Source: Escherichia phage phiSTEC1575-Stx2k. Taken from it: 46,647 nt of DNA. Positions 11,531 through 12,506 of this stretch are shown here, piece after piece (within the stretch, counting starts at the first letter, position 1; each line of letters opens with the position of its first letter). Where the stretch lies: sequence record OQ243220.1. One strand, written 5' to 3'. The notes under the pieces are model-generated. The model was not told the origin of the DNA. It ran no database searches and worked only from the letters and a program-made list of their open reading frames with translations. The position numbers and the translations under genes were made by a program.

Positions 11531-12183
11531 TGAGTAATAAATATTGCCAGGCGCTGGTGGAACTGCGGAACAAACCAGCCCATGAACTGAAGGAAGTGGG
11601 CGATCAGTGGCGCACGCCGGACAACATTTTCTGGGGAATTAACACCCTGTTTGGCCCGTTTGTTCTGGATCTGTTCACTGACGGTGATAACGCCAAATGT
11701 GCTGCGTATTACACGGCGGAAGACAACGCGCTGGCGCATGACTGGTCAGAACGCCTTGCGGAGCTTAAAGGTGCTGCCTTTGGTAATCCCCCATACAGCC
11801 GCGCCAGTCAGCATGAGGGGCAATACATCACCGGCATGCGTTACATCATGAAGCATGCCAGTGCCATGCGTGATAAAGGCGGGCGCTATGTTTTCCTGAT
11901 CAAAGCTGCCACCAGCGAAGTGTGGTGGCCGGAAGATGTAGATCATATTGCTTTTATTCGCGGGCGTATTGGTTTTGAACTGCCTGCCTGGTTTATCCCG
12001 AAGGATGAGAAGCAGGTGCCGACAGGCGCTTTCTTCGCTGGTGCTATTGCTGTTTTCGACAAGACCTGGAAGGGACCGGCAATCAGCTACATCGGGCGCG
12101 ATGAACTTGAGGCATGTGGTGAGGCCTTTCTGGCGCAGGTTCGCCAGCAGGCGGAAAAACTGGTCAGGGAGATGGCGGCATGA
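11530..12183 (+). CDS. Phage N6-adenine DNA methyltransferase (Dam-like)
   Basis: ATG at 11530 overlaps the upstream stop (TAATG); catalytic NPPY motif in FGNPPYSRASQ. Confidence 0.7.
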   Translation: MSNKYCQALVELRNKPAHELKEVGDQWRTPDNIFWGINTLFGPFVLDLFTDGDNAKCAAYYTAEDNALAHDWSERLAELKGAAFGNPPYSRASQHEGQYITGMRYIMKHASAMRDKGGRYVFLIKAATSEVWWPEDVDHIAFIRGRIGFELPAWFIPKDEKQVPTGAFFAGAIAVFDKTWKGPAISYIGRDELEACGEAFLAQVRQQAEKLVREMAA

Positions 12184-12506
12184 CGACGTTAACTCAATGC
12201 CAGCAGCAGGTGCTGGATATGCTGATTTCTTATCAGAAAGAACGCGGCTTCCCGCCAACCAATCAGGAGGTGGCAACCATGCTGGGATACCGTTCGGTGA
12301 ATGCAGCGGTGGAGCATCTTCGCGCACTGGAGAAAAAAGGCGTCATCACGATAAAGCGTGGTGTGGCCCGGGGGATCACGCTTCATACCGCGGTGAAGGA
12401 CGACGACAGCGAGGCGGTCGGGATTATCCGCTCACTGCTTGCCGGTGAGGAAAACGCAAGGCTGCGTGCAGCCCACTGGTTACATGAGAGGGGGCTGAAA
12501 GTATGA
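12180..12506 (+). CDS. LexA N-terminal DNA-binding-domain homologue lacking the S24 peptidase domain
   Basis: Residues 1-70 align with E. coli LexA 1-70 (LTxxQQxVxDxI...GxPPTxxExAxxLGxRSxNAAxEHLxALxKKGVIxI...RGI); only 108 aa, no cleavage/dimerisation domain. Confidence 0.65.
   Translation: MTTLTQCQQQVLDMLISYQKERGFPPTNQEVATMLGYRSVNAAVEHLRALEKKGVITIKRGVARGITLHTAVKDDDSEAVGIIRSLLAGEENARLRAAHWLHERGLKV

What the first reader, a model, noticed from the sequence alone, without database searches (positions are those of the whole stretch)
12180..12506. Phage-encoded LexA DNA-binding domain without the cleavage domain, in a genome carrying several LexA boxes
The 108-aa protein aligns with the N-terminal winged-helix domain of E. 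coli LexA, including most of the recognition-helix positions (SVNAAVEHL versus SPNAAEEHL), but lacks the S24 autoproteolytic/dimerisation domain. The same genome has consensus-like LexA boxes in front of the Panacea module (169-184) and the dinI-like gene (45311-45358). An uncleavable LexA mimic could keep selected SOS-box promoters repressed, or compete with host LexA, during induction.
Basis: partly seen in the sequence, partly recalled or inferred. Interest (0 to 1): 0.55.

Follow-up and report, generated by a model that had tools for sequence, protein, structure and literature searches.

The report
Phage LexA-like DNA-binding protein, uncleavable
A Shiga-toxin prophage carries a small, well-conserved gene for a copy of the DNA-binding half of the bacterial SOS repressor LexA that lacks the self-cleaving half; the gene is real, very common and already annotated, but nobody has shown which DNA it binds.

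Summary
ORF 12180-12506 (+) encodes a 108-aa protein with a full-length LexA winged-helix domain (Pfam 2.9e-19; 0.9 A rmsd to DNA-bound E. coli LexA) and no S24 peptidase domain. Two conserved C-terminal helices replace that domain.

The window is an Stx2k prophage at dusA in E. coli STEC1575. RefSeq already names the gene 'LexA family transcriptional regulator'. It occurs in 2233 of 5426 complete E. coli genomes and in SfV, SfII, mEp460 and Stx2c phages, always between the replication genes and Q.

The LexA boxes are real: 6 CTGT-N8-ACAG sites against 0.5 expected, plus further weight-matrix matches.

The 'uncleavable LexA mimic' reading is only partly supported.
- For: S39, N41, A42 and E45, the main base-contacting residues of LexA, are identical. 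The gene is placed to be expressed when host LexA is gone. In three other clades it sits downstream of a canonical LexA box, once together with dinI.
- Against: E44 is never kept in the family. Recognition positions 42-45 vary between clades whose hosts should share one SOS box. Host LexA alone explains every box. The only characterised analogue, GIL01 gp6, binds a different site and activates.

I found no experimental work on this protein. Interest is moderate.

The parts
12180..12506 (+). lexA-like gene (108 aa; RefSeq WP_000210164.1, 'LexA family transcriptional regulator')
   Evidence: ORF and sequence. Pfam, NCBIfam, PHROG and PDB matches. RefSeq annotation. Under purifying selection: pN/pS about 0.09 against a Shigella allele, and 9 synonymous with 0 non-synonymous differences against an IMG/VR allele.
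12180..12386 (+). Codons 1-69: LexA-type winged helix-turn-helix (helices 6-22, 28-35, 40-52; strands 56-58, 66-68). The recognition helix reads SVNAAVEHLRALEKKG.
   Evidence: AlphaFold2 model with pLDDT 77-87 over this part. Foldseek top hit is 3jso_B, the LexA-DNA complex: rmsd 0.9 A over 68 columns at 50% identity.
12399..12503 (+). Codons 74-108: family-specific C-terminal helical hairpin (helices 74-88 and 93-103) that replaces the S24 domain. I infer that it is a dimerisation module.
   Evidence: Secondary structure. A97 is invariant, and A79, A93, L101 and G105 are nearly invariant. Hydrophobic stripes lie at 79/80/82/83/86/87 and at 93/97/98/100/101. No Pfam family covers this part.
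11530..12183 (+). Phage N-6-adenine methyltransferase (dam), immediately upstream. Its stop overlaps the lexA-like start.
   Evidence: An upstream DNA methyltransferase gene recurs in divergent clades.
12503..12892 (+). RusA Holliday-junction resolvase gene, immediately downstream. Its start overlaps the lexA-like stop.
   Evidence: Synteny is kept in 5 of 7 clades and in nearly all of 80 IMG/VR loci.
12912..15484 (+). Rest of the conserved block between the replication genes and Q: KilA-N protein, DUF968 (Orf-like/HNH) and antiterminator Q.
   Evidence: No sigma-70 promoter-like site was found upstream of the lexA-like gene within 7900-12180 on the + strand, which argues for co-transcription with the early rightward operon.
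167..186 (.). LexA box 1 upstream of the Panacea gene: ACCTGTGTATATGTACAGTT. It lies downstream of a TTGACA-N16-TATAAT promoter at 123-150.
   Evidence: weight-matrix score 20.3 bits.
190..209 (.). LexA box 2 upstream of the Panacea gene: TACTGGTTATAAACACAGTG (CTGG variant).
   Evidence: 20.8 bits.
271..290 (.). Weaker LexA-like box 3, just upstream of the Panacea ribosome-binding site: TACTGTTTGCACATTCAGTG.
   Evidence: 17.4 bits.
7725..7744 (.). Near-consensus LexA box TACTGTTTTTACATACAGTA inside the cI repressor gene, in the linker codons 70-77.
   Evidence: 25.6 bits. It is conserved in SfII, ST64B and a Klebsiella phage, including four synonymous positions.
45311..45330 (.). LexA box proximal to the dinI-like gene (45049-45297, - strand): TACTGTGTTTGTATACAGTG.
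   Evidence: 21.3 bits.
45339..45358 (.). LexA box distal to the dinI-like gene: AACTGTATGGATAAACAGTG.
   Evidence: 21.2 bits.

Best explanation
The gene encodes a LexA-type operator-binding protein that RecA cannot inactivate.

**Shown**
- It is a complete LexA winged-helix domain with no S24 protease domain.
- A conserved two-helix hairpin follows it.
- The gene is under purifying selection.
- It is translationally coupled within the dam-lexA-like-rusA stretch of the early rightward operon, between the replication genes and Q.
- In three other clades it lies downstream of a canonical LexA box, once together with dinI.

**Inferred**
- The protein is made only after the SOS signal has removed cI, and with it host LexA.
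- It dimerises through the C-terminal hairpin.
- It reads CTGT-type half-sites with the retained S39/N41/A42/E45 set.
- It thereby restores repression at LexA-box-like operators at a time when host LexA cannot. Candidate targets are the phage's own SOS-controlled accessory genes (Panacea module, dinI-like gene, the cI-internal site). Host SOS genes and LexA-controlled functions of rival prophages are possible further targets.
- Loss of the negatively charged E44 may raise intrinsic DNA affinity and so compensate for the missing LexA dimerisation domain.
For: - Domain identity and absence of S24.
- The model superposes on DNA-bound LexA at 0.9 A rmsd with 50% identity.
- S39, N41, A42 and E45 are identical to E. 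coli LexA. These are the residues a review of the crystal structure gives as the main mediators of CTGT readout (PMC11442139).
- S39, N41, K53, R64 and G65 are invariant across 30 family members.
- Start and stop codons overlap those of dam and rusA, and no promoter-like site lies upstream of the gene on its strand.
- The block is conserved in 80 IMG/VR loci and in 7 divergent clades.
- In the Klebsiella, Enterobacter and one Salmonella clade, a 21-27 bit LexA box lies 440-700 bp upstream, heading (dinI)-orfX-lexA-like.
- The window holds at least six good LexA boxes against 0.5 expected.
- The hairpin has broad conserved hydrophobic stripes, and the linker has pLDDT below 50 with pTM 0.55. 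This fits a module that is not packed on the DNA-binding domain.
- From my own knowledge: the isolated LexA N-terminal fragment keeps weak operator binding, and cells must degrade it by ClpXP for full induction (Neher et al. 2003, which appears in the reference list of PMC11442139).
Against: - E44 is listed as a DNA contact in the NMR-based model (PMC13416735). It is V here and never E in the aligned family.
- Positions 42-45 are hypervariable between and within clades, while the C-terminal hairpin is almost invariant. Variants seen at positions 43-45 include AVE, AAE, ATD, AND, VLL, ALT, VFI and IAG. All named family members come from Enterobacterales, whose LexA boxes are, to my knowledge, the same. 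This points to diverging, phage-specific targets.
- The canonical box upstream of the gene is unchanged between loci with AAE and VLL helices, so that box is for host LexA.
- Every box in the window is explained by host LexA alone.
- The cI-internal box is also present in ST64B and in a Klebsiella phage, neither of which appears among the phage records with a homologue.
- Helix-2 and wing residues R28, R34 and R67 of LexA are N, M and T here.
- Dimerisation is not shown.
- GIL01 gp6, the only characterised truncated LexA homologue, binds a different palindrome and activates transcription (PMC6182141).
Confidence: 0.38

Rival explanations
1. It is a phage-specific transcription factor whose DNA specificity has drifted away from the SOS box. 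Like GIL01 gp6, it would bind its own palindrome somewhere in the phage and repress or activate particular phage promoters. The resemblance to LexA would then be ancestry only.
For: - Precedent: gp6 is a truncated LexA homologue that binds GaCACA-nn-TGTGaC and activates the late promoter (PMC6182141).
- Recognition positions 42-45 are hypervariable while the scaffold and hairpin are conserved. This is the pattern expected for diversifying operator specificity.
- E44 is never retained in the family.
- LexA-like proteins that consist of the DNA-binding domain alone are common across unrelated phages.
Against: - The window protein itself keeps all four crystal-structure base contacts of E. coli LexA.
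- No other enriched or conserved palindrome was found. CTGT-N8-ACAG was the top 4-mer palindrome in the window. No inverted repeats were found within 7900-17900. No second co-varying repeat was visible in the promoter regions of six loci.
- The conserved gene block has essentially no non-coding DNA that could hold a linked operator.
Confidence: 0.32
2. It is a DNA-metabolism accessory rather than a promoter regulator. It would be a small DNA-binding subunit that works with the neighbouring methyltransferase, RusA resolvase and DUF968 (Orf-like/HNH) recombination functions, for example by targeting or protecting particular DNA sites during replication and recombination.
For: - The genes around it are consistently DNA-metabolism genes: a DNA methyltransferase upstream in 5 of 7 clades, rusA downstream in 5 of 7, and DUF968 within three genes in 7 of 7.
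- It is translationally coupled to dam and rusA.
- DUF968 is described as an Orf-family domain fused to an HNH motif (PMC4118853).
- There are weak profile hits to winged helices of replication initiators: DnaD_N, and the O-like phrog_678.
Against: - Gene order in this part of lambdoid genomes is largely modular, so adjacency is weak functional evidence.
- The invariant S39 and N41 argue for sequence-specific major-groove readout.
- In the Klebsiella clade rusA is absent from the block, yet the gene is kept.
Confidence: 0.12
3. It is a decoy or pseudosubstrate. The stretch IIRSLLAGEE aligns with the LexA cleavage-site region LVGRVAAGEP, so the protein might occupy the active site of LexA, cI or UmuD, or bind activated RecA, and so modulate cleavage.
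For: HMMER extends the alignment with full-length LexA through residue 90, so that phage A88-G89 lies over LexA A84-G85.
Against: The Ala-Gly pair is not conserved in the family (ER, TR, SG, DD, EE and others at the same columns), and the segment is predicted to be the end of an alpha-helix rather than a loop or strand.
Confidence: 0.03
4. It is a decaying remnant of a captured lexA gene with no present function.
For: It looks like a truncation of lexA, and several database records hold fused or truncated versions.
Against: - pN/pS is about 0.09, and one comparison shows 9 synonymous against 0 non-synonymous differences.
- It is present in 41% of complete E. coli genomes.
- Homologues at 40-57% identity keep their length, the hairpin and the synteny across Enterobacterales.
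Confidence: 0.02

Closest known systems
E. coli LexA, N-terminal DNA-binding domain (PDB 1lea, 3jso)
   Same: The winged helix-turn-helix fold is the same (0.9 A rmsd, about 50% identity). S39, N41, A42, E45, H46, K53, R64 and G65 are identical.
   Different: There is no S24 protease and dimerisation domain and no functional cleavage site. E44 is V, R28 is N, R34 is M and R67 is T. A 35-residue helical hairpin follows the domain instead. The gene is phage-borne and lies in the early lytic operon. It fails the TIGR00498 cut-off.
Bacillus phage GIL01 gp6 (truncated LexA homologue, activator of late promoter P3)
   Same: Both are phage-encoded, consist of a LexA DNA-binding domain without the cleavage domain, and are made from an early operon after SOS derepression (PMC6182141).
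   Different: BLASTP finds no similarity between them, so the truncations are probably independent. gp6 is 66 aa with no C-terminal hairpin. It binds GaCACA-nn-TGTGaC rather than the host SOS box, and it activates. It belongs to a tectivirus of Firmicutes, not a lambdoid siphovirus.
PHROG 362 / RefSeq 'LexA family transcriptional regulator' / Stx-phage pham 237
   Same: The window protein is a full-length member (phrog_362 at 1.4e-59; RefSeq name). A LexA-family pham with the pfam01726 domain is listed in a comparative study of Stx phages (PMC8136144).
   Different: These are annotation bins only. The label 'transcriptional repressor' is inferred, and I found no experimental paper behind it.
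BlaI/MecI-type repressors (winged helix plus C-terminal helical dimerisation domain)
   Same: The overall architecture is similar. Foldseek aligns the full length to Rv1846c and MecI.
   Different: The match is weak (TM about 0.48, rmsd 7-9 A) and there is no sequence relationship. It is an analogy for how the hairpin could dimerise, not evidence of membership.
SOS-damping factors of mobile elements (DinI, plasmid PsiB, GIL01 gp7)
   Same: If the best explanation holds, the outcome is the same: the element limits or reshapes the host SOS response. dinI is co-located with the gene in the Klebsiella clade.
   Different: To my knowledge those proteins act on RecA or on LexA protein. This one would act directly on operator DNA.

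Membership tests
LexA repressor proper (NCBIfam TIGR00498 equivalog) | N-terminal LexA-type winged-helix DNA-binding domain | tested here: met
   PF01726 at 69 bits, residues 1-65 against profile 1-65 of 65. Structural match to 3jso at 0.9 A.
LexA repressor proper (NCBIfam TIGR00498 equivalog) | C-terminal S24 peptidase domain with the Ser/Lys dyad | tested here: not met
   The protein ends at residue 108. There is no Peptidase_S24 hit, and only positions 1-91 of 203 of the lexA profile are matched.
LexA repressor proper (NCBIfam TIGR00498 equivalog) | Whole-protein score above the curated cut-off | tested here: not met
   70.8 bits against a cut-off of 110.95.
LexA repressor proper (NCBIfam TIGR00498 equivalog) | Conserved Ala-Gly self-cleavage site | tested here: not met
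   A88-G89 aligns with LexA A84-G85, but the pair is not conserved in the family and lies in a predicted helix.
LexA repressor proper (NCBIfam TIGR00498 equivalog) | Binds CTGT-N8-ACAG operators | not testable with these tools
   Only indirect evidence: four of four crystal-structure base contacts are conserved, but E44 is V.
Pfam PF01726 LexA_DNA_bind / PHROG 362 | Profile match above threshold over the full domain | tested here: met
   (phrog_362 at 1.4e-59, residues 1-108 against profile 1-106 of 106).
GIL01 gp6-type truncated LexA activators | LexA DNA-binding domain without the cleavage domain, phage-encoded | tested here: met
GIL01 gp6-type truncated LexA activators | Sequence homology to gp6 | tested here: not met
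   BLASTP finds no alignment with E <= 100.
GIL01 gp6-type truncated LexA activators | Binds a non-SOS palindrome overlapping the -35 element of a late promoter and activates it | not testable with these tools
   No candidate site was found. Lambdoid late genes depend on Q antitermination (my own knowledge).
Enterobacterial LexA-domain family between the replication genes and Q (defined here) | About 105-135 aa: winged-helix domain plus conserved two-helix C-terminal hairpin (A79, A93, A97, L101, G105) | tested here: met
   Alignment A3 of 30 members at 40-87% identity, and the model.
Enterobacterial LexA-domain family between the replication genes and Q (defined here) | Located between the replication genes and Q, on the early-operon strand, next to rusA and/or DUF968 | tested here: met
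   Window, 7 clades and 80 IMG/VR loci.

The most novel reading that the evidence does not exclude
The protein would be a RecA-proof LexA surrogate, carried by about 40% of E. coli genomes and by many Stx prophages. The prophage would switch it on once the SOS signal has destroyed host LexA.

By re-occupying SOS boxes, it would shut down host SOS functions, the phage's own SOS-induced accessory genes, and LexA-controlled antirepressors of rival prophages while the phage is in lytic growth. That would shape Shiga-toxin phage induction and competition between prophages in one cell.

The modules in other clades, in which a LexA box heads (dinI)-orfX-lexA-like, would be self-limiting SOS dampers active already in the lysogen.
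Probability: 0.25. Interest if true: 0.7.

Novelty: new variant of a known kind. Interest (0 to 1): 0.42.

Why it matters
If the protein does bind SOS boxes, a very common prophage gene would rewire the host DNA-damage response at the moment Stx phages are induced. That bears on toxin output after antibiotic treatment, on SOS mutagenesis in lysogens, and on which prophage wins in a cell that carries several.

If it has its own operator instead, it would be a second, independent case, after GIL01 gp6, of a phage recruiting the LexA DNA-binding domain as a private regulator.

Either result is reachable with simple experiments, because candidate sites and the protein are fully defined. As it stands, this is an already-annotated, uncharacterised accessory gene of lambdoid phages.

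Tried and rejected
1. **Cleavage-site decoy.** LLAGEE aligns with the LexA cleavage region VAAGEP, which suggested a decoy or pseudosubstrate. I rejected this because the Ala-Gly pair is not conserved and the segment is helical.
2. **A second operator motif.** An enrichment scan of all 4-mer palindromes at spacings 4-12 returned CTGT-N8 as the top hit, and the others looked like coding-sequence background. The inverted-repeat search of 7900-17900 found nothing. Visual comparison of the promoter regions of six loci with different recognition helices showed only the canonical LexA box.
3. **Direct relationship to GIL01 gp6.** BLASTP found no similarity.
4. **orfX in the window.** orfX (phrog_1813) accompanies the gene in other clades. 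It is absent from the window.
5. **Literature.** Seven full-text searches found no experimental study of this lambdoid protein. The 'bully phage' preprint on phi1720a-02, which carries an identical gene, attributes interference between prophages to Cro and does not mention this gene in the passages I searched.
6. **The Zhang et al. 2010 LexA-DNA paper** could not be read. The contact residues are therefore taken from secondary sources.
7. **Not attempted.**
   - I did not compare LexA-box density in phage genomes that carry the gene with genomes that lack it. The accessible sample would be a few non-independent lineages.
   - Dimer and protein-DNA modelling were not available with these tools.
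Full report
**What is there**

The window is identical to E. coli STEC1575 (NZ_CP116044.1) over the first 24 kb that I compared. It is an Stx2k-converting lambdoid prophage inserted at dusA.

ORF 12180-12506 (+) encodes 108 aa. Its ATG overlaps the stop of the upstream phage dam gene as ATGA, and its TGA overlaps the ATG of the downstream rusA gene. RefSeq already calls the protein WP_000210164.1, 'LexA family transcriptional regulator'.

**Checking the observation**

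- Pfam LexA_DNA_bind matches residues 1-65 over the whole 65-position profile (E = 2.9e-19, 69 bits against a cut-off of 23.7). No S24 peptidase domain is found.
- The NCBIfam lexA equivalog matches only profile positions 1-91 of 203 and stays below its cut-off (70.8 against 110.95 bits).
- phmmer against PDB sequences gives the E. coli LexA DNA-binding domain at 7e-16.
- An AlphaFold2 model built from a 30-sequence family alignment has mean pLDDT 81.8. It shows the LexA winged helix-turn-helix, a disordered linker at 69-74, and two further helices at 74-88 and 93-103.
- Foldseek places DNA-bound LexA (3jso_B) first, at 0.9 A rmsd over 68 columns and 50% identity.

The LexA boxes are also real:

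- CTGT-N8-ACAG occurs six times against 0.49 expected. It was the most enriched 4-mer palindrome at any spacing from 4 to 12, although several others were 5-8 fold enriched under the same simple model.
- I built a weight matrix from E. coli SOS boxes recalled from memory, so its scores are only a guide. The sites it scores at 17 bits or more are listed below.

| Position | Context | Score (bits) |
|---|---|---|
| 167-186, 190-209, 271-290 | in front of the Panacea gene, behind a TTGACA-N16-TATAAT promoter | 20.3, 20.8, 17.4 |
| 7725-7744 | inside the cI gene | 25.6 |
| 45311-45330, 45339-45358 | in front of the dinI-like gene | 21.3, 21.2 |

- The exact matches at 8955 and 35656 lie inside genes, lack the extended consensus, and are probably chance.

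**How common and how conserved**

- The gene is found at 95% nucleotide identity or more in 2233 of 5426 complete E. coli genomes.
- tblastn finds a match in 60 phage records, including SfV (orf42), SfII, SfIV, mEp460, cdtI, phi1720a-02 and the Stx2c phages. A few of the weakest matches are full-length lexA genes in bacterial contigs. The depositors' names range from 'LexA-like protein' to the wrong 'SOS-response repressor and protease LexA'.
- It is under purifying selection. Against a Shigella allele, pS is 0.14 and pN is 0.012. Against an IMG/VR allele there are nine synonymous and no non-synonymous differences.
- Profile searches reveal a family of about 105-135 aa proteins across Escherichia, Salmonella, Citrobacter, Cronobacter, Klebsiella, Enterobacter, Atlantibacter, Kosakonia and Hafnia, at 40-87% identity.
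- All members keep the C-terminal hairpin. A97 is invariant, and A79, A93, L101 and G105 are nearly so. Broad hydrophobic stripes run along both helices.

**Context**

- In 80 IMG/VR loci the block PerC-(dam)-lexA-like-rusA-KilA-N-DUF968(-Q) is essentially constant.
- In seven divergent clades the gene always lies between the replication genes and Q, on the early-operon strand. It is usually directly upstream of rusA and within three genes of DUF968 and Q, and it often follows a DNA methyltransferase.
- In the window, no promoter-like site lies upstream of the gene on its strand within the scanned region. Expression should therefore follow derepression of the early rightward operon once the S24-type cI repressor has been cleaved.
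- In the Klebsiella, Enterobacter and one Salmonella clade the gene lies 440-700 bp downstream of a canonical LexA box of 21-27 bits. In two of these clades the box follows a terminator-like hairpin. It heads (dinI)-orfX-lexA-like.
- Under either arrangement the protein is expected to be made when host LexA has been inactivated. In one clade it is co-located with dinI, which to my knowledge is another modulator of the SOS response.

**What it most likely does**

The DNA-reading surface is largely that of LexA. A review of the LexA-DNA crystal structure names S39, N41, A42 and E45 as the main mediators of CTGT readout (PMC11442139), and all four are identical in the window protein. S39, N41, K53, R64 and G65 are invariant across the family.

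The missing S24 domain is what dimerises LexA. The conserved amphipathic hairpin, joined by a flexible linker and not confidently packed on the DNA-binding domain (pTM 0.55), is the obvious substitute. That role is inferred, not shown. It is supported only by analogy with repressors built as a winged helix plus a helical dimerisation domain, such as MecI and BlaI, which Foldseek aligns weakly.

My best explanation, at confidence 0.38, is a RecA-insensitive protein that binds CTGT-type operators. It would restore repression at SOS-box-like sites during induction.

**Why confidence is limited**

1. E44, a DNA contact in the NMR-based model (PMC13416735), is V here and never E in the aligned family. 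In a small sample of 12 full-length proteins (190-260 aa), 8 kept E44.
2. Recognition positions 42-45 are hypervariable across the family. Within the 'long' clade, positions 43-45 read AAE, VLL, ALT, IAE or VTL while the hairpin is almost invariant. All named family members come from Enterobacterales, which to my knowledge share one SOS box. This is what diverging, phage-specific operators would produce.
3. The canonical box upstream of the gene is the same in loci with AAE and VLL helices, so that box serves host LexA.
4. Host LexA alone explains every box in the window. The cI-internal box also occurs in ST64B and in Klebsiella phage 1 LV-2017, neither of which appears among the phage records with a homologue.
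5. The only characterised truncated LexA homologue, GIL01 gp6, evolved a different palindrome and activates a late promoter (PMC6182141).

I therefore give the 'private operator' rival 0.32. A role as a DNA-metabolism accessory to Dam, RusA and the Orf-HNH protein gets 0.12, on synteny alone. The pseudosubstrate idea gets 0.03, because the Ala-Gly pair is not conserved. Gene decay gets 0.02.

**Comparison with what is known**

- The protein is a member of Pfam PF01726 and PHROG 362.
- It is not a LexA proper: it has no S24 domain and falls below the equivalog cut-off.
- It shows no detectable sequence similarity to gp6, so the two are probably independent truncations.
- Phage proteins that consist of a LexA DNA-binding domain alone, 65-150 aa long, are widespread. 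Proteins with two such domains in tandem also exist.
- Seven full-text searches found no experimental study of the lambdoid protein. It is merely listed among the regulatory protein families of Stx phages (PMC8136144).

I therefore file it as a new variant of a known kind. It has a separate lineage, an added hairpin, retained CTGT-reading residues, and a position in the early operon or behind an SOS box.

**Verdict**

The mimic hypothesis is reasonable, directly testable and unproven. The family-wide variation in the recognition helix is the main new argument against taking it for granted. Interest is 0.42.

Noticed in passing
window 7725-7744 (inside cI, 7261-7953, - strand): A near-consensus LexA box, TACTGTTTTTACATACAGTA, lies in the linker codons 70-77 of the S24-type cI repressor. 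CTGT, ACAG and four synonymous positions (ACT, GTA, xAC, AGT) are kept in SfII, ST64B and Klebsiella phage 1 LV-2017, while the surrounding linker diverges and carries an indel. This suggests a functional operator inside the gene. I did not find what it controls.
   Followed up: partly
window 123-310: A near-perfect sigma-70 promoter (TTGACA-N16-TATAAT, 123-150) is followed by three LexA-like boxes (167-186, 190-209, 271-290). They sit in front of a Panacea-domain gene (308-781) and a 182-aa protein with no Pfam match (804-1352). The pair looks like an SOS-controlled toxin-antitoxin or defence-like module next to the attachment site.
   Followed up: partly
L002 9385-10393; L010 9560-10408; L011 9561-10357: In Klebsiella, Enterobacter and Salmonella prophages a canonical LexA box in the same genome region heads a small unit: (dinI)-orfX (75-96 aa, phrog_1813, function unknown)-lexA-like. 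In two of the three clades it follows a terminator-like hairpin. rusA, DUF968 and Q follow on the same strand, so an SOS-controlled promoter may read towards Q.
   Followed up: partly
proteins P0132, P0148, P0153, P0156, P0160, P0164: These are proteins of about 160-350 aa with two tandem LexA_DNA_bind domains and no S24 domain. They are a different way of pairing LexA DNA-binding domains without the protease domain.
   Followed up: partly
phage records: The same protein, which has only the DNA-binding domain, is deposited under misleading names such as 'SOS-response repressor and protease LexA' (phi1720a-02, 2H10) and 'RecA-mediated autopeptidases' (cdtI). Some RefSeq phage records label the neighbouring dam gene 'phosphoadenosine phosphosulfate reductase'.
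   Followed up: no
L011 13794-15390: In a Salmonella Choleraesuis prophage, a gene with a Cas1 domain hit overlaps a gene with an AcrVA2-like hit, both on the reverse strand between the Q region and the lysis genes.
   Followed up: no
window 17488-19582: According to the RefSeq annotation, three tRNA genes (Ile, Arg, Arg) lie just upstream of stx2k A and B, and an iraM anti-adaptor gene lies on the opposite strand just downstream.
   Followed up: no
window 8955-8970 and 35656-35671: These two CTGT-N8-ACAG matches lie inside coding sequence (the Ash/Rha gene and the tape-measure gene). They lack the flanking TA...TA consensus and score below the weight-matrix threshold, so they are probably chance.
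   Followed up: yes
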